Assembly (NCBI GenBank): GCA_009692615.1 | Contig: SHYW01000004.1 | Span: 8,273 to 72,272 of the forward strand | Length of the DNA: 64,000 nt | Direction: 5' to 3' | Origin: Deltaproteobacteria bacterium | GTDB taxonomy: Bacteria; Desulfobacterota; Binatia; UBA9968 | Shown here: positions 7,891 through 30,357 of the stretch, one piece after another | How positions within the stretch are numbered: the first letter of the stretch is position 1 | How the letters are laid out: every line of letters starts with the position of its first letter | The notes under the pieces: generated by a model | Databases searched by the model: none | Told to the model about the DNA's origin: nothing | What the model saw: the letters and a program-made list of their open reading frames with translations, nothing else | Made by a program: the position numbers and the translations under genes

Positions 7891-8142
7891 ATGAAAGCGC
7901 GCATCATTCAAATCGGCAAAGCAAAAGGCGTTCGACTTCCAAATAAATTGGTCAAAGTGGCCCATCTCAGGGAAGAGGTCGAACTCGCAGCGGCACCTGG
8001 GCATATCACTATTCACAGCGCCGCTCGGCCGCGCGCCGGATGGTCGGCCTCAGCCAAGCGCATGCGCGAGCGCGGCGAGGATCGGCTAGTCGCGCCGGTA
8101 CCAGCGACAAAATTCGACGAGGAAGAATGGCGGTGGCGCTAG
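7891..8142 (+). CDS. mazE: AbrB/MazE/SpoVT-type antitoxin
   Basis: MKARIIQIGKAKGVRLPNKLV swapped-hairpin N-terminus. Overlaps the downstream toxin by 16 nt. Confidence 0.6.
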   Translation: MKARIIQIGKAKGVRLPNKLVKVAHLREEVELAAAPGHITIHSAARPRAGWSASAKRMRERGEDRLVAPVPATKFDEEEWRWR

Positions 8143-8468
8143 CTCAAACACCCGCACGCGGCGAAGTCTATTTAGTTCAGCTCGATCCAACGCGTGGAGT
8201 AGAGATCCGGAAAACCAGACCCTGCATCGTCATCTCACCCAATGAACTAAATCAACACCTGCGCACAGTAATTGTCGCGCCTTTGACCACGCAGAGTCAC
8301 GCCTATCCGTGGCGCCCACGCTGCCGATTTCAGGGCAAAGCCGGTTATGTTGTCATCGATCAGCTTCGTACCGTCGACGTCCAACGCTTGACCAAACGAC
8401 TGGGACAAATTCCGCAAAACACGCTTACTACGATACTGAACGTACTCCACGAGATGTTTGCATTTTAA
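8127..8468 (+). CDS. mazF: MazF/PemK family mRNA interferase toxin
   Basis: GEVYLVQLDPTRGVEIRKTRPCIVISPNELN..VIVAPLTT.. is a canonical PemK/MazF core. Confidence 0.7.
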   Translation: MAVALAQTPARGEVYLVQLDPTRGVEIRKTRPCIVISPNELNQHLRTVIVAPLTTQSHAYPWRPRCRFQGKAGYVVIDQLRTVDVQRLTKRLGQIPQNTLTTILNVLHEMFAF

Positions 8469-8539: not shown

Positions 8540-9343
8540 ATGCCCACCGACACCTGCTACTGGAAACACGAAATCCCCGCCGACCAAGCTTTTCCCTGCT
8601 ACGACGGCAAAAGCACAGTCTGTAGCCATTGCTGCGTCGAGCAGTGTCCCAAGGAAACGCCGCAATGGTTCGCCGCCTGCGCCCGCGCCGGCCATCCGAC
8701 CTGGCCTAGCGTCGATCAAGGCCAGCGCGTGTCGCGCAAACTGGTCGTGCTCGAATCTTACTGGGACAACCGTCTGTTTCAGACCATGTCGGTCAAAGGC
8801 TTCTTCGAATCCATGGGGCCGTTGCACGATCCGCCGTTGCAACTAGCGCACCGCTTCGTCGAATCCCAACGCGGCCTAGCACACTACACGCGATCGCCCG
8901 AAGGCCTTCTCTGGCGCGATCCCGCCGCCGCCGATGCGCCGATTTTCTACTTGGCATTTCACGGCGCGCCGAGCGAAGTCAAATCGGTCCTCGAATCCAT
9001 CGGCGCCCAAGAGCTGTGCGATGCCTTCCAAAACTTCGGCGTCAAACCCAACCTGGTTTACTTCGCCGCGTGCAGCGTGCTCAAAGGCCGCGCCGGCCGA
9101 CAGTTCGCCAAGAAATTTCTCGAAGCCTCCCGCTGCCGCGCGCTGCTCGGCTACACCACCAACGTCAACTGGATGCTCAGCCTGCTGACCGATATGCTTT
9201 TCCTACACCGCTTCTATCGCGACGACGATCCATGGAAAAACTTGCGCAAGATTTACCGCTCGGTGCTGAACGACTTCAAACCCGCCGAAGAAATTGGTTG
9301 GACATTAATCGAGAATCCGCGCAGCTTTAAGAAGCGCCGATAA
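8540..9343 (+). CDS. hypothetical protein: Cys-rich N-terminus plus candidate caspase/CHAT-like His-Cys dyad
   Basis: N-terminal CxxxxxxxxxxxCxxxxxxCxHCCxxxC cluster. Later IFYLAFHGAP and NLVYFAACSVLKG lie about 45 aa apart, in the pattern of C14/CHAT catalytic His and Cys. Confidence 0.35.
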   Translation: MPTDTCYWKHEIPADQAFPCYDGKSTVCSHCCVEQCPKETPQWFAACARAGHPTWPSVDQGQRVSRKLVVLESYWDNRLFQTMSVKGFFESMGPLHDPPLQLAHRFVESQRGLAHYTRSPEGLLWRDPAAADAPIFYLAFHGAPSEVKSVLESIGAQELCDAFQNFGVKPNLVYFAACSVLKGRAGRQFAKKFLEASRCRALLGYTTNVNWMLSLLTDMLFLHRFYRDDDPWKNLRKIYRSVLNDFKPAEEIGWTLIENPRSFKKRR

Positions 9344-9394
9344 CTTGCTAAAACTGACGACAGCTAGAAGCACACGAGGTCACGATATAATTTT

Positions 9395-9437
9395 CTGTAG
9401 GGGCAGACCTGCGTGTCTGCCCTTCTCCATTCGAAGG
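9395..9437. repeat. repeat family B copy (ctgtaggggcagacctgcgtgtctgccc..)
   Basis: Same element at 59855-59923, with related copies at 15525-15547 and 57465-57492. Confidence 0.5.
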
Positions 9438-9448
9438 ACTGAATCATC

Positions 9449-10552
9449 ATGCTGAGAGCTGGAATCGTCGGTCTGCCCAACGTCGGCAAGTCGACACTGT
9501 TTAACGCCATCACGCGCACGCGCAAAGCCGAGGCGGCCAATTATCCCTTTTGCACCATCGATCCCAACGTCGGCATGGTCACCGTGCCGGACGCGCGGCT
9601 CTATGTCTTGCAGCAGATGGTCAAAACCAACGTGGTCATCCCGGCGGTGATCGAGTTCGTTGACATCGCTGGCCTGGTCAAAGGCGCCAGCCAAGGCGAA
9701 GGGCTCGGCAATAAATTTCTCACCCATATCCGCGAAGTCGACGCCATCGTCCAAGTTGTGCGCTGCTTCGAAGACGCCGACGTGCACCATGTCTCCGGCA
9801 ACATCGATCCGGTGCGCGACATCGAAGTCATCAACACCGAACTCATGCTCGCCGATCTCGAAACCGTGAAGAAGCGGCGCGAGCGCATCGCCAAGGAGAT
9901 CAAGCGCGGCGACAAAGCCGCCGCCGCCGAGGACGCCCTGCTGGTGAAAATCGAAACCGCCCTCGACGCTGGCAAGCCAGCTCTCACTGTCGAACTGACG
10001 CCGGAAGAACACGCCATGTCCGCGCAGTTTTTCCTGCTCTCCGACAAGCGCACGATCTTCGCCTGCAACGTCAAAGAGTCCGACTTGGCCACCGCCGATC
10101 AGAACAGCTACGTGCAAAAAGTGCGCGACTACGTGAAAACCCATCTCGCTTGCGAAGCGGTGGTGATCAGCGCGCAGATCGAGAGCGACCTCGTCGATCT
10201 CGAACCCGCCGACGCTGAAGCCTTTCTCAAAGAACTCGGCGTACAAGAAAGCGGCATCGGCGCGCTCATCCGCGCAACTTATCATCTGCTCGGGTTGCGG
10301 ACTTATCTCACCGCCGGCGAAAAAGAAGTGCGTGCCTGGACCATTCACGCCGGCGACACCGCCCCCAAAGCCGCCGGCGTCATCCACTCCGACTTCGAAC
10401 GCGGCTTCATCAAAGCCGAAACCGTTTCTTACGAGGACTTAGTTCAATGCGGCTCCGTCGCCGCGGCCCGTACGAAGGGCTTATATCGCATGGAAGGGAA
10501 AGAATACGTCGTGCAGGATGGGGATGTGATGTTGTTTAAGTTCAATGTTTAG
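9449..10552 (+). CDS. ychF: redox-regulated ribosome-binding ATPase YchF (Obg family GTPase)
   Basis: GIVGLPNVGKSTLFNA P-loop, DIAGLV, a C-terminal TGS domain, and the conserved tail GKEYVVQDGDVMLFKFNV. Confidence 0.9.
   Translation: MLRAGIVGLPNVGKSTLFNAITRTRKAEAANYPFCTIDPNVGMVTVPDARLYVLQQMVKTNVVIPAVIEFVDIAGLVKGASQGEGLGNKFLTHIREVDAIVQVVRCFEDADVHHVSGNIDPVRDIEVINTELMLADLETVKKRRERIAKEIKRGDKAAAAEDALLVKIETALDAGKPALTVELTPEEHAMSAQFFLLSDKRTIFACNVKESDLATADQNSYVQKVRDYVKTHLACEAVVISAQIESDLVDLEPADAEAFLKELGVQESGIGALIRATYHLLGLRTYLTAGEKEVRAWTIHAGDTAPKAAGVIHSDFERGFIKAETVSYEDLVQCGSVAAARTKGLYRMEGKEYVVQDGDVMLFKFNV
10452..10552 (+). repeat. direct repeat R1 (3' 100 nt of ychF), copy 1
   Basis: About 88% identical to 11120-11219, and the last 60 nt are nearly identical. 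Confidence 0.65.
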
Positions 10553-10586
10553 TGAACAAGCTGAAAATGCGCAGCCGAAAGTAAAT

Positions 10587-10646
10587 CCTGTTACGTTAAC
10601 CAGGGAGACCCATTAAGAATAGTCGCGTAAAGAAAGCAACAGAGCC
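10587..10646 (+). repeat. direct repeat R2, copy 1; contains a 3' remnant of a DUF4926-type gene (..YVNQGDPLRIVA stop)
   Basis: About 80% identical to 11441-11497, which is the true 3' end of the DUF4926 gene (..HNQSPLRIVA stop). Confidence 0.55.
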
Positions 10647-10657
10647 AAATTCAATCC

Positions 10658-11074
10658 ATGAAGATTGCGCCTCAGAGTTTCTATGCAGCTATCGCTGCTG
10701 GCTGCGCCACGGTTTTGCCCTTGGTCGGGGTGCAATTAGTCGTTGATTATTTCGATTCACCCGCTAAAGGTCCGGATCGGGCAACAATGGCAGTGATCTT
10801 CCTAACGCCCATTATCATCTTGGGATTTGCAGCCTACTTTGTTGGAGTCAGGATATTACTTTCATTGCTTCGGCTCGATTCGCTTCGTACGGCATTGATC
10901 GTAAGCGCGCTCACTGTCGGCGTTCTAATAAGCTGGATGATTTTCAACGACCCGTCATCAAGCCCGAATACGTTCTGGGGATTTGTCGGACCTTCTTGCA
11001 TAGTTCTTACATCCCTCGTCGCGGGAACTTTTGTGTACGAGTGGGCGCGTCAACGTATTCATCCGAACTGGTGA
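10658..11074 (+). CDS. hypothetical integral membrane protein (3-4 TM helices)
   Basis: 138 aa and hydrophobic. Lies between R2 and the second ychF-tail copy. Confidence 0.4.
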   Translation: MKIAPQSFYAAIAAGCATVLPLVGVQLVVDYFDSPAKGPDRATMAVIFLTPIIILGFAAYFVGVRILLSLLRLDSLRTALIVSALTVGVLISWMIFNDPSSSPNTFWGFVGPSCIVLTSLVAGTFVYEWARQRIHPNW

Positions 11075-11119
11075 AATAGACCACAATACACATGACCGCT
11101 CACGTAGCGATGAATGCGA

Positions 11120-11219
11120 CTCCGTCACCGCCGCGCGCACCAAGGGCTTGTGCCGCATGGAAGGGAAAGAATATGTCGTGCAGGATGGGGATGTGATGTT
11201 GTTTAAGTTCAATGGGTAG
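11120..11219 (+). repeat. direct repeat R1 copy 2 (orphan duplicate of ychF 3' end)
   Basis: Encodes ..AARTKGLCRMEGKEYVVQDGDVMLFKFNG stop, versus the ychF tail ..AARTKGLYRMEGKEYVVQDGDVMLFKFNV. Confidence 0.65.
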
Positions 11220-11249
11220 TGCGCGCCTCGGTCGCGAACGGAAACGAAG

Positions 11250-11477
11250 ATGAAACAACGAAAACTCAAACTATTGGAAACCATCGCACTGCTTCAAGAC
11301 ATACCATCCCGCAAGCTGAAACGCGGCGAAGTTGGCACGGTAGAAGAAATCCTTGCGCCCAATTTTTACGAAGTTGAATTCTGTGATGACGAAGGGCAAA
11401 CCTACGCCGAACTGGCGTTACGCGGCATACAGATCATCCCGTTACATAACCAGAGCCCATTAAGAATTGTCGCGTGA
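11250..11477 (+). CDS. DUF4926-like small protein
   Basis: 75 aa. LLQDIPSRKLKRGEVGTVEEILAPNFYEVEFCDDEGQTYAELAL follows the DUF4926 pattern. Confidence 0.5.
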   Translation: MKQRKLKLLETIALLQDIPSRKLKRGEVGTVEEILAPNFYEVEFCDDEGQTYAELALRGIQIIPLHNQSPLRIVA

Positions 11478-11497
11478 GCAAAGAGGCCCACGACAGC
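11441..11497 (+). repeat. direct repeat R2 copy 2
   Basis: Pairs with 10587-10646. Confidence 0.55.
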
Positions 11498-11574
11498 TCC
11501 AATCTATAGAATTGGTATTATGCCCCCGGACCTTTGTCTCTTTCATTTTCCAAAACTGTGGCTACAATAGGTCC

Positions 11575-11907
11575 GTGGCTCGAGCACTCTCCCCGGATGA
11601 TGTTCTCTTTGAAGTTTTGAGTCCGCTTGGATTTCGTGTACGCGTCACACGCGGCTACTGGGAAGTCATCGTTTCGATCAAGCATCCGGTCATGGCGGGA
11701 CATGAACAGGATGTCAAAGAAACGCTTGAAACTCCCAGCGAGATTCGATTGAGCAAGAACGATTCGACAGTTCACCTGTTTTACCGGCAGAAAGAGATCG
11801 GACGATGGGTATGTGCTGTGGCCAAGCGTCTCGATGGTGAAGGCTTTCTGATTACAGCTTACCCAACCGACGCGATCAAAGAAGGAGAACAGATATGGCC
11901 CAAGTGA
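11575..11907 (+). CDS. DUF4258-like protein (putative toxin partner of DUF2283)
   Basis: C-terminal ..KEIGRWVCAVAKRLDGEGFLITAYPTD resembles the DUF4258 VVITAY motif. GTG start chosen; the ORF-track start is TTG at 11467. Confidence 0.35.
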   Translation: MARALSPDDVLFEVLSPLGFRVRVTRGYWEVIVSIKHPVMAGHEQDVKETLETPSEIRLSKNDSTVHLFYRQKEIGRWVCAVAKRLDGEGFLITAYPTDAIKEGEQIWPK

Positions 11908-12107
11908 AAGTTTTTTACGATGAAACCGGCAATACGCTCACCGTCTGGTTTGGCGATCCTGAGAGCGAGTACATCAGCGAGGAAACCGGTGAGGAAGTCA
12001 TCCTCATGAAGGACAAGGCTGGTCATGTCATCGGTTTTGAAAAGCTCAATTTCACGGTCGCCAAACCCAAGCATCTACAAGTGGCGTTCGAAACGGTAGG
12101 CGGCTAA
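11895..12107 (+). CDS. DUF2283 domain protein
   Basis: VKVFYDETGNTLTVWFGDPESEY..EEVILMKDKAGHVIGFEKL is a typical DUF2283 signature. Confidence 0.55.
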   Translation: MAQVKVFYDETGNTLTVWFGDPESEYISEETGEEVILMKDKAGHVIGFEKLNFTVAKPKHLQVAFETVGG

Positions 12108-12350
12108 CGGAATTTTCACCCCGATGTGGTTCGCTACTGTCTCGTCTGTCAAGCCTGACACGGAATCAGTGGATGGCCGTATATCACTGCATGATCTTGC
12201 TTTAAGAATCACTAGAAACTTGTAGGTGCAAAAAATATAGACACGTCCGAACAGATACTCCGACAACTTCGTTGGATCAAGTGGTTAAACGCATTCATCG
12301 CGATCAGTTTCGCAGTAACTGCCGGCTCGTTTGTGTGGGTAAGCCTTGAG

Positions 12351-12647
12351 ATGCCTCGCACCACATCCAACGCTGCTTATTCTGCCTCCTTTACGAACCA
12401 GGGCACAAACCTCTTAAACAAAGGCAAGGCAAAAGAAGTCATCCTGTTGGCAGAAGAACGCGAAAAGAAGTCTCCTATGGATCCGTACGTGTATTGGTTT
12501 CGGGGCAAAGCCTACTACCAATTAGGAGAGTATGATGCTGCGTTAAAAGATATACTTGTTGCGGACGAGATCTGCCCAGTGTGGCACGAAGAATATACCG
12601 GGCCTTTCATCAAGAGAATCAAAGAAAAACTTACTGAGAAGGGCTAG
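12351..12647 (+). CDS. hypothetical protein (possible single TPR-like motif) in a low-GC spacer
   Basis: ..AYYQLGEYDAALKDILVADEI.. The surrounding 12.1-12.75 kb is visibly AT-richer than its flanks. Confidence 0.25.
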   Translation: MPRTTSNAAYSASFTNQGTNLLNKGKAKEVILLAEEREKKSPMDPYVYWFRGKAYYQLGEYDAALKDILVADEICPVWHEEYTGPFIKRIKEKLTEKG

Positions 12648-12753
12648 GAACGACGTCGTTGCACGTAACATTTGCGTGGGGCGGATGCCACGCAAACTCG
12701 GGCTGTTTTTCGATACATCTGTAACGACTCCGCTCACGCTAACGTTAGTTTTG

Positions 12754-14325
12754 CTAACCTTTCAATTCAAACTTCCCATCCTTATCCTGACCGATTTTCT
12801 CTTCTTCATACAACCGCGCCAGCGCACTCGCGACGGTCTTGTAATCCGCCTTGGGAAACTTATCCAAGAGATCGGCGAAGAAACAGTGCGACTTGCCGAG
12901 AGCCGCGACGATCTTCTCAACCAGTAATTCCACTGTTTCTGCTGACGTTGCATTGGCTTTTGCCTTTACCGTGACATCGGAAACGCCGACGTAATCGCTC
13001 AACTTAACCTTGCCCTGATTGAAATAAATGATCCGCTGGTACCGCTCGGCCGGAATATTTTCCGGGATCGTCGCGTCGATGCCCATCTTCGCTGTCGTCG
13101 GAACTTTGCCGTACAATGGCAGCGGCAAAGATGGATCGAGCGGCTTAGAGCGCGCGTTGGAGACGATGACGACATCGCGGTCGGCTTGCACGCGGGTCGC
13201 GACGGCCCACTCCACGTCGATGGGATCAAACACGTCGATATCGTCGTCGACGATGGTCACGTGTTTGATATCGGCGATGGACAAGAGCGCCATGATCGCG
13301 TTCTTGCCGTCGCCGGGAACTTTTTTGATCGACGCAATGATATGCCAGTGGCAACAGCCGCCGGGCGTGACGTTGATCCCAACCGTCTGCACGCCCGCTT
13401 CAGCCAATACGCGGCGCGCCGCGGCTTCGTAGATCGGCGCCGACATCCAGATATTTTCCCAAGGCATCTGCAGCGCGTAGTACATAGCGTCCTTGCGGTG
13501 CATGATCGACTTGATGCGCACTCTTGGATTCATGTGCATGCCGCCCATCAGGCGATTGAATTCGCTGAACGGCCCTTCGCTGTGCACCCAGCCTTCGGGG
13601 AGAATTTCTCCCTCTAAAACAATTTCGGCGTCGGCGATGCACGGCACCGGCACGGTTTCGCCGTCGGCGAGACGCAGCGGTTCGTTACGCAAGCCACCGG
13701 CGAAGGTCAGTTCGTTGACGCCGAGGTTGGCTTTGAATGTCGACGCGACCAATTCATACGGATGAGTGCCGATGGAGATGGAGATCGGCAGCGGTTTCTT
13801 TTTTGCCAAGGCGCGTTCGGCGAACTTGCGCATGTTGTTGGGCGTGACGATGTCGATGCCGGTGATGTTGCGCTCCTTGAGCATCAAGCGGTAGATGCCG
13901 GCGTTGATGCCGAAATCCGGGTCCTCGGCGATCACCACGCCGGCGGTGATCATCGGCCCGCCATCCATGATCGAAAACACCGGCACCGGCAGGTCGTAGA
14001 GATTTACTTTCTTGCCGGTATGAATGACTTCCTTCACCGGCGCGTTGGCGACGCGCTTCGGTTGGATCGGTTTGTCCATCGCTTTGCCGAGCTTGGCGCC
14101 GATGTTTTCATAGTCGACGCCCATGCCGAGCGCGATGCGCTTGCGCGATTGCAGCAGACCGGAAACCACCGGCATCGAATAGCCGGGCAAATTCCTAAAC
14201 AGCAGCGCCTTCTCCGACTGCGCCACCAATGCCGCCACGTCGCGCAGATCAACAGGTTTGGAAATCTCCAACAGCTCGTCGTTTTTTCTTAGCGTGTCGA
14301 TGTAATCGCGAAAGCTCGCTTTCAT
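12754..14325 (-). CDS. UbiD family (prFMN-dependent) decarboxylase with a C-terminal extension of ~35 aa
   Basis: 523 aa with full-length UbiD similarity (..GGPMITAGVV..EGPFSEFNRLMGG..VTIVDDDIDVFDPIDVEWAVATRVQ..). Confidence 0.85.
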   Translation of the reverse strand: MKASFRDYIDTLRKNDELLEISKPVDLRDVAALVAQSEKALLFRNLPGYSMPVVSGLLQSRKRIALGMGVDYENIGAKLGKAMDKPIQPKRVANAPVKEVIHTGKKVNLYDLPVPVFSIMDGGPMITAGVVIAEDPDFGINAGIYRLMLKERNITGIDIVTPNNMRKFAERALAKKKPLPISISIGTHPYELVASTFKANLGVNELTFAGGLRNEPLRLADGETVPVPCIADAEIVLEGEILPEGWVHSEGPFSEFNRLMGGMHMNPRVRIKSIMHRKDAMYYALQMPWENIWMSAPIYEAAARRVLAEAGVQTVGINVTPGGCCHWHIIASIKKVPGDGKNAIMALLSIADIKHVTIVDDDIDVFDPIDVEWAVATRVQADRDVVIVSNARSKPLDPSLPLPLYGKVPTTAKMGIDATIPENIPAERYQRIIYFNQGKVKLSDYVGVSDVTVKAKANATSAETVELLVEKIVAALGKSHCFFADLLDKFPKADYKTVASALARLYEEEKIGQDKDGKFELKG

Positions 14326-29433: not shown

Positions 29434-30080
29434 TCACGCCCAATACGTCGTCCGGTCAACGGGAATATGCTGCAACACTTCGCCCGGCACGAAATCTTCC
29501 AAGCGAATGCGCGTCAGCGCTTCGTCGGGACATTTTGACACCGGCGATAACGGTCGATCTAATGGCTTCGTCGCATCGACGATCATCGCCGAAGTTTTGC
29601 GCGGGTCGACCATCGATGGATCGATCAAGCTACCGCGCATGATTTGCTTGATGATCGACACTTGCAGATGCGGTTGGACGCGAGTCGCCAGAGCCCAAAG
29701 AATTTCCGTCGGATTGTAAACGTCGATGTCTTCGTCGAAGACAAAAACACTCTTGCACCAATCCCAGGTCAGCACCGCGGCCGCGGCCCGGCCTGGATCG
29801 CCTTCGGAAAGTTTTTTCATCGAGATGAAAACGTTCAACAGCGCGTGGCGGCCGCTGGTGCAGACGGTTTCGACATTGGGCACAGCCTCCCGGGCGCGGC
29901 GCAAGTAGGCGCCTTCGGGCGCCAGGTCCATCCACGGTTTGTCACCTTCCGGTGTGAGTATCGAAGTGTGCTGCGCGTCGCACGCAGCCGCTTGGCGCAA
30001 ATGGATAGCGAAGGTCGCGGCGATGGGACACCGGACAAAGCGCTTGCACTTCAACGGGACCTTGCCGACCAAAGTGACGT
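29434..30080 (-). pseudogene. 5'-truncated UbiD-family decarboxylase paralog (C-terminal ~215 aa only)
   Basis: ..VFVFDEDIDVYNPTEILWALATRVQ.. aligns with the C-terminal half of the intact UbiD at 12754-14325. The upstream ORF-track N-terminus is not UbiD-like and collides with a Sel1 fragment. Confidence 0.5.
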
Positions 30081-30094
30081 AAGAGGCCGACAGC

Positions 30095-30357
30095 CACTGG
30101 CTAATCGTCTTTATGCAGGCACCGGAGTCGAAAAGAATCCTGCCGAAGCGGTTCGTTGGTATCGCGCCGCGGCTGAACAAGGAAATGCAAACGCGCACTT
30201 GACTGTAGGTCTAAGATTGGTCGACGGTATCGGCGCACCGAAAGACGAGAAGCAGGGAGTTGGCTGGTATCGCCGTGCAGCGGAACAGGAACATCCGCAA
30301 GCTCGATTCAGTATGGCGTGGCCCCTCGGAGCTGGGCAAGGCGCACTTAAAGTATAG
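30095..30357 (+). pseudogene. Sel1-repeat protein C-terminal fragment
   Basis: LANRLYAGTGVEKNPAEAVRWYRAAAEQGNANAHLTVGL..GVGWYRRAAEQEH.. gives two Sel1 repeats with no start codon and no signal peptide. Confidence 0.4.

What the first reader, a model, noticed from the sequence alone, without database searches (positions are those of the whole stretch)
10452..11497. Insertion/duplication hotspot at the 3' end of ychF: interleaved direct repeats R1 and R2
The last 100 nt of ychF (R1) recur at 11120-11219 as an orphan copy that still encodes ..RMEGKEYVVQDGDVMLFKFN. A second repeat (R2, about 57 nt) recurs 0.85 kb apart. Copy 2 of R2 is the genuine 3' end of the DUF4926 gene (..HNQSPLRIVA stop). 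Copy 1 of R2 sits right after ychF and still reads ..YVNQGDPLRIVA stop. The order is R1, R2, membrane-protein gene, R1', DUF4926 gene, R2'. This indicates a tandem duplication of the ychF tail plus DUF4926 unit. A small membrane-protein gene then replaced most of the first DUF4926 copy. This is the footprint of serial cassette turnover at one site.
Basis: seen in the sequence. Interest (0 to 1): 0.6.

Follow-up and report, generated by a model that had tools for sequence, protein, structure and literature searches.

The report
Duplicated ychF tail, eroded antitoxin gene
The end of the housekeeping gene ychF and the small DUF4926 gene after it are present twice in a row, as one worn-down copy and one intact copy; this looks like an ordinary scar of an old local duplication at a variable spot that carries small toxin-antitoxin-like genes, not a new kind of mobile-cassette system.

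Summary
Both repeats are real. R1 (10446-10554) recurs at 11113-11221: 109 nt, 89% identical, E 8e-30. R2 is weaker than described: 28 nt ungapped at 86%, or about 65 nt at 75% with gaps, E 7e-5. It is still a genuine 3' remnant of a DUF4926 gene, because it reads NQGDPLRIVA-stop, the canonical family ending.

Syntenic relatives show the ancestral layout ychF - DUF6883 - DUF4926 (L172, then UbiD; L167). The window has lost DUF6883. It holds two collinear copies of [ychF tail -> DUF4926]: copy 1 is eroded to about 75 nt and copy 2 is intact.

The copies are only 75-80% alike, except for a 57-nt core that matches at 56 of 57 positions.

The 138-aa 'membrane gene' lies downstream of the remnant and does not replace it. 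It has no homologue in two protein searches, the larger holding 5.8 billion sequences.

No integrase was found among the ORFs tested across the 64 kb, and no tRNA or known RNA family. Among about 170 other ychF loci, one unrelated locus (L111) shows the same pattern.

Best reading: an old partial tandem duplication followed by decay, with gene conversion keeping the core identical. Rivals are a remnant of site-specific integration and the insertion of a diverged allele. Ordinary; low interest.

The parts
9449..10552 (+). ychF (367 aa), intact
   Evidence: Pfam MMR_HSR1 plus YchF-GTPase_C (1.7e-38). It is 92-95% identical to YchF proteins of relatives, one named Candidatus Binatia.
10446..10554 (+). 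R1: the last 35 codons of ychF plus the stop. The 5' part is 10446-10489 and the core is 10490-10546.
10557..10636 (+). Eroded DUF4926 pseudogene (R2 copy 1). It reads ..NQGDPLRIVA-stop (stop at 10628-10630), starts less than 10 nt after the ychF stop, and aligns to the intact gene in patches.
10658..11074 (+). 138-aa ORF with no homologues and about 4 hydrophobic segments. Coding status is uncertain. It belongs to a 455-nt segment (10658-11112) of unknown origin.
   Evidence: No Pfam or NCBIfam match above threshold. No homologue. Not called in the ENA twin contig. GC by codon position 0.52/0.47/0.52. Hydropathy.
11113..11221 (+). R1': orphan copy of the ychF tail. The 5' part is 11113-11156, the core is 11157-11213 and the in-frame stop is 11217-11219. 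Homology to ychF ends sharply at about 11111.
11250..11477 (+). Intact DUF4926 gene (75 aa), with no DUF6883 partner. It carries a 3-nt deletion relative to the canonical 76-aa form.
   Evidence: Pfam PF16277 1.5e-19. 693 homologues. C-terminal endings compared. No DUF6883 in the window by tblastn.
11421..11483 (+). R2': the 3' end of DUF4926 plus a few bases beyond it.
11575..12107 (+). A 110-aa ORF and a DUF2283 gene that overlap by 13 nt; a two-gene toxin-antitoxin-like module absent from the syntenic relative L172.
   Evidence: 67% nucleotide match to a mobilizable cyanobacterial plasmid.
12754..14325 (-). UbiD-family gene, the conserved right flank of the variable stretch.
   Evidence: Pfam. 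83.5% nucleotide identity to L172, where it directly follows DUF4926.

Best explanation
This is a non-functional genomic scar.

Ancestral state (shown by relatives): ychF was followed by a two-gene, toxin-antitoxin-like pair, DUF6883-DUF4926.

Inferred steps in the window's lineage:
1. DUF6883 was deleted.
2. A segment starting about 110 nt before the ychF stop and running through DUF4926 was duplicated in tandem. ychF stays intact, so the event is neutral and leaves an orphan ychF tail.
3. The copy of DUF4926 nearest to ychF eroded by deletions to about 75 nt.
4. About 455 nt of unrelated DNA, containing the ORF without homologues, came to lie at the duplication junction.
5. The orphan tail drifted to about 80% identity. 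The exception is a 57-nt core, kept identical to the functional ychF tail by repeated short-tract gene conversion. Converted tracts that damage ychF would be removed by selection.

Separately, another small two-gene module (110-aa ORF plus DUF2283) and a small TPR ORF were added between DUF4926 and UbiD.

No part of the repeat structure needs a present-day function.
For: Shown:
- Two markers, the ychF tail and the DUF4926 tail, recur in the same order and orientation.
- L172 has ychF - DUF6883 - DUF4926 - UbiD. Its ychF, DUF4926 and UbiD are each 83-84% identical in nucleotides to the window, so DUF4926 next to ychF is the ancestral chromosomal context.
- L167 has ychF - DUF6883 - DUF4926. L170 has a decayed DUF4926. 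L169 and L173 have none. Decay of this module is therefore common in the clade.
- The ychF homology of R1' extends 44 nt upstream of the core. A duplicated gene fragment would show this; an attP site has no need for it.
- R1 and R1' share a TTR Leu codon where all six relatives compared have CTC. This makes them sister sequences.
- The three amino-acid changes in the 5' part are all on the R1' side, which fits relaxed constraint.
- An independent locus, L111, has the ychF tail repeated 3.2 kb downstream (77-81% identity), and each copy is followed by a paralogous PEP-CTERM gene. Tandem duplication of [ychF tail + next gene] therefore happens elsewhere.
- No mobility gene was found in the window.

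Inferred: the order of events and the role of gene conversion.
Against: - The junction is not clean: 455 nt of unrelated DNA sits between copy 1 and R1'.
- Divergence is not uniform. The core is 98% identical against 75-80% elsewhere. A second process, gene conversion, has to be added, and it is not shown directly.
- No close relative (above 90% nucleotide identity) with or without the duplication was found, so the order of events is untested.
- The stretch 10553-12753 has lower GC3 (0.50-0.62) than the flanking genes (0.71-0.75). This would also fit imported DNA.
Confidence: 0.55

Rival explanations
1. Insertion of a diverged allele. DNA from a related strain or species carrying its own version of the ychF-DUF4926 locus was joined to the resident locus. 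The join was either a homologous or Campbell-type crossover in the shared 57-nt core, or one homologous end plus one illegitimate end. Both versions then lie side by side, and the orphan tail marks the joint.
For: - Outside the core the two copies are as diverged from each other (35/44) as from other species' ychF tails (34-38/44).
- Copy 1 keeps the canonical NQGDPLRIVA ending. The intact gene has a 3-nt deletion, so neither copy derives from the present form of the other.
- The sequence downstream of the intact DUF4926 resembles that of L174, a contig from another sample (83.7% over 294 nt).
- The whole stretch 10553-12753 has low GC3.
- A near-identical block is where a homologous crossover would occur.
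Against: - A single crossover between diverged sequences does not make the two resulting repeats identical. The identity of the core must have existed beforehand or come from mismatch repair.
- R1 and R1' share a derived Leu codon absent from all sampled relatives.
- No donor-like locus (ychF - remnant - 138-aa ORF) was found, and that ORF has no homologue anywhere.
Confidence: 0.2
2. Remnant of site-specific integration at the 3' end of ychF. The 57-nt core is the att identity block. The 667 bp between the cores is a decayed element that has lost its integrase, like a cis-mobilizable element, possibly accreted onto an older island that begins with DUF4926.
For: - Direct repeats with a near-perfect core flank a lower-GC insert and rebuild the 3' end of a conserved gene.
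- ychF is a reported integration site for pipolins that encode large serine recombinases (PMC11551731).
- Elements that lost their integrase but keep attL and attR, and their tandem accretion, are described (PMC5704250). So are tandem islands separated by repeats of the 3' end of ssrA (PMC3146451).
Against: - No integrase, transposase or other mobility gene among the 58 ORFs tested across 64 kb; no tRNA.
- The core pattern is absent from the viral contig collection.
- Only 1 of about 170 other ychF loci has an orphan tail, and that locus also lacks an integrase.
- The DNA to the right of both repeats is homologous (DUF4926 tails). Duplication predicts this; insertion of an unrelated element does not.
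- DUF4926 next to ychF is ancestral, and the relatives that carry it have no tail repeat.
- The ychF homology in R1' extends 44 nt upstream of the core.
Confidence: 0.15
3. Assembly artefact. Two co-occurring strains with different ychF downstream regions were joined through the shared 57-nt core.
For: - The window comes from a metagenome-assembled genome.
- Two Logan contigs, L001 and L002, break exactly inside the core. The core is therefore a branching point in assembly graphs.
Against: - R1' has a real left junction with non-ychF DNA at about 11111. An orphan tail therefore exists on some molecule whatever the assembly did.
- A second assembly, the ENA ERZ1305449 contig of 24,380 nt, has the same ychF-to-DUF4926 spacing of 698 nt as the window, whose contig is 90,715 nt long.
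Confidence: 0.05

Closest known systems
Partial-gene tandem (segmental) duplication that leaves a 3' gene fragment, with concerted evolution of a sub-tract by gene conversion
   Same: - Two collinear copies of two markers.
- An intact upstream gene plus an orphan 3' fragment.
- One copy of the passenger gene decays.
   Different: - 455 nt of unrelated DNA lies at the junction.
- A 57-nt block at 98% identity sits within copies that are otherwise 75-80% identical.
Integrative elements that target gene 3' ends, decayed integrase-less derivatives of them (cis-mobilizable elements), and tandem accretion (PMC5704250; Dehalococcoides ssrA islands, PMC3146451; pipolins at ychF, PMC11551731)
   Same: - Direct repeats of the target gene's 3' end bracket lower-GC DNA.
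- The gene is restored.
- The downstream region varies among relatives.
   Different: - No recombinase found in the 64 kb.
- The insert is only 0.67 kb.
- Homology to the target extends upstream of the identity block.
- The flank beyond the second repeat is homologous to the inside of the insert.
- No recurrence across ychF loci.
DUF6883-DUF4926 two-gene modules, toxin-antitoxin-like by gene arrangement
   Same: The intact gene is a clear DUF4926 member. Relatives carry the DUF6883-DUF4926 pair at the same site (L163-168, L172, L174).
   Different: In the window DUF6883 is absent, so DUF4926 is a solitary gene, and a second DUF4926 copy is a 75-nt remnant. The function of the pair was not tested. 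A 2026 bioRxiv preprint on BECR ribonucleases mentions both families, but it could not be opened.
Integron gene cassettes
   Different: No IntI-type integrase. The repeats are pieces of coding genes, not attC sites. No array structure.

Membership tests
Tandem segmental duplication | Two or more markers repeated in the same order and orientation | tested here: met
   R1->R2 and R1'->R2' are collinear.
Tandem segmental duplication | A single novel junction joins the end of copy 1 directly to the start of copy 2 | tested here: not met
   455 nt of unrelated DNA (10658-11112) lies between the last similarity after R2 and R1'. A further insertion event is needed.
Tandem segmental duplication | Comparable divergence along the duplicated unit | tested here: not met
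   Core 56/57, 5' part 35/44, R2 about 75%. Gene conversion or selection must be added.
Site-specific integrative element (genomic island or cis-mobilizable element) | Direct repeats (attL and attR) flank the insert at the 3' end of a target gene | tested here: met
   The 57-nt core occurs twice, 667 nt apart, and ychF is intact.
Site-specific integrative element (genomic island or cis-mobilizable element) | A recombinase gene in or next to the element, or for a cis-mobilizable element a cognate element or integrase in the genome | tested here: not met
   No Phage_integrase, Recombinase, Resolvase or transposase family among the 58 ORFs scanned across 64 kb. The rest of the genome is not available.
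Site-specific integrative element (genomic island or cis-mobilizable element) | A precise empty site in relatives, or the same element at the same att site in other genomes | tested here: inconclusive
   No relative above 87% nucleotide identity was found. None of about 170 ychF loci carries this insert. One unrelated locus (L111) has an orphan tail without an integrase.
Site-specific integrative element (genomic island or cis-mobilizable element) | Excision to a circle and restoration of the empty site | not testable with these tools
   Needs raw reads or PCR.
DUF4926 (PF16277) | Match to the family profile above the curated threshold | tested here: met
   11250-11477 scores 69.6 bits against a cut-off of 29.1. 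The remnant at 10557-10636 was recognised only by alignment and by its C-terminal NQGDPLRIVA.
DUF6883-DUF4926 two-gene module | A DUF6883 gene immediately upstream of DUF4926 | tested here: not met
   tblastn with two DUF6883 proteins finds nothing significant in the window (best E 0.22, elsewhere in the window). The gene is present in L163-168, L172 and L174.
Integron cassette array | An IntI integrase plus attC sites bounding each cassette | tested here: not met
   No integrase. The repeats are fragments of ychF and DUF4926 coding sequence. No RNA or structure family was hit in 9000-13000. No attC-specific search was run.

The most novel reading that the evidence does not exclude
The 57-nt near-identical core is the attachment site of an undescribed system that targets ychF in Binatia. 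The 0.67-kb unit would be a miniature cassette without an integrase, moved in trans by a recombinase encoded elsewhere. The ychF 3' flank would then be a dedicated landing pad for small toxin-antitoxin and membrane genes.
Probability: 0.08. Interest if true: 0.55.

Novelty: already known. Interest (0 to 1): 0.18.

Why it matters
It matters little beyond annotation. The orphan ychF tail (11113-11221) and the DUF4926 remnant (about 10557-10636) should be annotated as pseudogene fragments. The 138-aa ORF should be treated as doubtful.

The locus is a tidy example of two processes: a small toxin-antitoxin-like module next to a housekeeping gene decaying differently in related lineages, and a short tract of a duplicated gene end staying identical while its flanks diverge.

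If the minority reading were true, with the core acting as an att site, ychF would become a recognised integration target in a little-studied phylum.

Tried and rejected
- Exact-protein look-ups for YchF and the 138-aa ORF found nothing on record.
- The 80 genome loci and 80 metagenome loci retrieved with YchF share no synteny with the window. Useful relatives came only through DUF4926 and YchF homologues and their contigs.
- A low GC3 of the ychF tail as a sign of foreign origin was rejected. Its GC3 of 0.60 is matched or undercut by 12% of 20-codon windows within ychF.
- Weak self-matches of ychF tails in L006, L090 and other loci are noise; their translations show no YchF-like peptide.
- The long ychF 'matches' in L015, L016, L021 and L106 are the neighbouring obg gene, not insertions.
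- Rfam found only two sub-threshold chance hits.
- Promoter and terminator scans gave no more sites than shuffled sequence.
- The core pattern is absent from viral contigs.
- The island has no phage match, and only the 110-aa/DUF2283 pair matches a plasmid.
- The 138-aa ORF has no match above threshold in Pfam or NCBIfam, and no hit in the 5.8-billion word-indexed search or the 1.84-billion full phmmer search.
- The preprint that mentions DUF6883 and DUF4926 could not be opened.
Full report
OBSERVATION

ychF occupies 9449-10552 (Pfam MMR_HSR1 plus YchF-GTPase_C). Its last 109 nt (10446-10554) recur at 11113-11221 with 89% ungapped identity and blastn E 8e-30. The orphan copy keeps the reading frame and reads DSVTAARTKGLCRMEGKEYVVQDGDVMLFKFNG-stop.

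A second, weaker repeat links 10570-10636 to 11421-11483. It is 28 nt ungapped at 86%, or 67 columns at 74.6% with three gaps, E 7e-5. A 20-nt pattern taken from it occurs only at these two places in the window.

Copy 2 of this repeat is the 3' end of a clear DUF4926 gene (11250-11477; PF16277, 1.5e-19). Copy 1 begins a few bases after the ychF stop and reads ..NQGDPLRIVA-stop. That is the canonical ending of the 76-aa members of this family. The intact gene here has NQSPLRIVA, one codon shorter. Copy 1 also shares a 23-nt exact run with the DUF4926 tail of the syntenic relative L172.

The observation therefore stands.

STRUCTURE OF THE REPEATS

Identity within R1 is strongly uneven:
- The 44 nt on the left match at 35/44. 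Either copy matches the ychF tails of six other species equally well (34-38/44).
- The next 57 nt (10490-10546 and 11157-11213) match at 56/57, while both differ from all relatives at 8-12 positions.
- The final codon differs at two of three bases (GTT vs GGG). After a shared TAGTG the sequences diverge.
- The contrast is significant: Fisher p = 0.002, and the probability of at most 1 mismatch in 57 at the flank rate is 3e-5.

In the 5' part the three amino-acid changes are all on the orphan side, and most other differences are synonymous. Both copies share a TTR Leu codon where all relatives have CTC.

A global alignment of the two units shows that copy 1 aligns to the intact DUF4926 only in patches. 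One patch is a 10-nt exact match in the RKLKRGEV region. About 180 nt are missing. Copy 1 is therefore an eroded pseudogene.

The 138-aa ORF lies after the remnant's stop codon. It does not sit in place of the missing part.

THE 138-AA ORF

The ORF 10658-11074 has about four hydrophobic segments. Evidence that it is a gene is lacking:
- no Pfam or NCBIfam match above threshold;
- no homologue in the 5.8-billion-protein search or in a full phmmer scan of 1.84 billion representatives;
- GC content flat over codon positions, 0.52/0.47/0.52;
- no gene called between ychF and DUF4926 in a twin contig from ENA.

Its coding status is open.

CONTEXT AND RELATIVES

The window belongs to a metagenome-assembled genome labelled Deltaproteobacteria, on a contig of 90,715 nt. 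The closest YchF proteins, at 92-95% identity, include one named Candidatus Binatia.

The 80 genome loci and 80 metagenome loci retrieved with YchF share no synteny with the window. Informative relatives came from contigs that encode close DUF4926 or YchF homologues:
- L172: ychF - DUF6883 (frameshifted near its end) - DUF4926 - UbiD on the opposite strand. ychF, DUF4926 and UbiD are each 83-84% identical in nucleotides to the window. This is the best model of the ancestral state.
- L167: DUF6642 - ychF - DUF6883 - DUF4926 - an HMGL-like gene.
- L170: the same flanks, with a decayed DUF4926.
- L169 and L173: no trace of the pair.
- L171: a different gene 66 nt after ychF.
- L163-166: the DUF6883-DUF4926 pair directly after the Fer2 gene and before UbiD, with no ychF at that place.

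The window contains no DUF6883.

The interval between Fer2 and UbiD is therefore variable in this clade. The DUF6883-DUF4926 pair next to ychF is ancestral and decays repeatedly. None of these relatives has an orphan ychF tail.

RECURRENCE

A tblastn search with the YchF tail, and a self-blast of each locus's own tail, covered 162 loci. They found one further case, L111. In L111 an 82-nt copy of the ychF tail (77% identical) lies 3.2 kb downstream. Each copy is followed by a PEP-CTERM/autotransporter-repeat gene, and the 3' ends of the two genes are 69% identical over 374 nt. There is no integrase.

This is an independent tandem duplication of [ychF tail + next gene]. Such an event is neutral because ychF remains whole.

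MOBILITY SIGNALS

- No tRNA or tmRNA in the window.
- No Rfam family above threshold in 9000-13000.
- No excess of promoter-like or terminator-like sites.
- Pfam scans of 58 ORFs across the 64 kb found metabolic and transport genes and a PemK/MazF-like ORF, but no integrase, recombinase or transposase.
- The core pattern is absent from the viral contig collection.
- The stretch 10553-12753 has lower GC3 (0.50-0.62) than the flanking genes (0.71-0.75).
- Within that stretch, the 110-aa/DUF2283 pair matches a mobilizable cyanobacterial plasmid at 67%. There is no phage match.

INTERPRETATION

The simplest account that uses the comparative data is as follows.
1. The ancestor had ychF-DUF6883-DUF4926.
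2. DUF6883 was lost.
3. A tandem duplication started about 110 nt before the ychF stop and covered DUF4926.
4. The copy of DUF4926 nearest to ychF eroded.
5. About 455 nt of unrelated DNA was acquired at the junction.
6. The orphan tail drifted.

The near-identity of the core is best explained by continued short-tract gene conversion between the two copies. Selection on ychF would filter out harmful conversions. This step is inferred, not shown. I give this account 0.55.

Three rivals remain:
- Insertion of a diverged allele of the same locus, by homologous or illegitimate recombination (0.20). The 80% identity outside the core, the canonical ending of the remnant and the low GC3 favour it. 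The shared derived Leu codon, the lack of any donor-like locus, and the fact that a crossover does not by itself make the repeats identical all weaken it.
- A decayed site-specific integration with the core as the att site (0.15). ychF is a known target of pipolins with large serine recombinases (PMC11551731). Integrase-less remnants and tandem accretion are well described (PMC5704250; PMC3146451). Against it: no recombinase was found here, the homology extends upstream of the core, the flank beyond the second repeat is homologous to the inside of the insert, and the site does not recur.
- An assembly artefact (0.05). The orphan tail has a real left junction, and a second assembly shows the same spacing. 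However, two Logan contigs break inside the core.

VERDICT

The repeats are real. The 'replacement by a membrane gene' and the 'serial cassette turnover' readings are not supported. This is an ordinary duplication-and-decay scar at a variable spot that carries small toxin-antitoxin-like genes.

The one feature still without a direct explanation is the 57-nt identical core.

Noticed in passing
window 8040-8468 (+): A PemK/MazF-like toxin ORF (PF02452, 3e-28) lies between the Fer2 gene and the DUF6642 gene. It overlaps an 83-aa ORF that was the one called in the ENA twin contig. This is another toxin-antitoxin-type gene in the same variable interval.
   Followed up: partly
window 11575-12107 (+): A 110-aa ORF with no Pfam family overlaps a DUF2283 gene by 13 nt, forming a two-gene module. 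The pair matches a mobilizable plasmid of Chondrocystis sp. NIES-4102 (AP018285.1, 16302-16698) at 67% and is absent from the syntenic relative L172.
   Followed up: partly
L111 2396-2477 and 5567-5648: In an unrelated contig (CXWL01004096.1) the ychF tail is repeated 3.2 kb downstream. Each copy is followed by a paralogous PEP-CTERM/autotransporter-repeat gene. This is an independent tandem duplication starting inside the ychF 3' end.
   Followed up: yes
L165 and L166 1557-2072, compared with L163 and L164: An IS200-like (Y1_Tnp, weak hit) gene lies about 0.8 kb downstream of the DUF6883-DUF4926 pair in two contigs. It is absent from two otherwise matching contigs, so this is an insertion polymorphism.
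   Followed up: no
L172 1149-1492; L167 2491-3595; L170 6327-6799: Relatives show other decay states. DUF6883 is frameshifted near its end in L172. ychF is split by a frameshift in L167, a contig whose name suggests a long-read assembly, so this may be a sequencing error. L170 has a DUF4926 pseudogene.
   Followed up: partly
L001 and L002, position 1: Two Logan contigs from SRR8561391 and SRR8561390 start exactly inside the 57-nt core of R1'. Short-read assemblies break at this repeat.
   Followed up: partly
window 11490-11535 and L174 1340-1389: About 60 nt downstream of DUF4926 are conserved between the window and L174. The stretch includes a small palindrome, CCAATCTATAGAATTGG. Its role is unknown.
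   Followed up: no
window 29434-30198 (-): An ORF matches only the UbiD C-terminal domain (2.7e-18). It may be a fragment or a small paralogue of the UbiD gene at 12754-14325.
   Followed up: no
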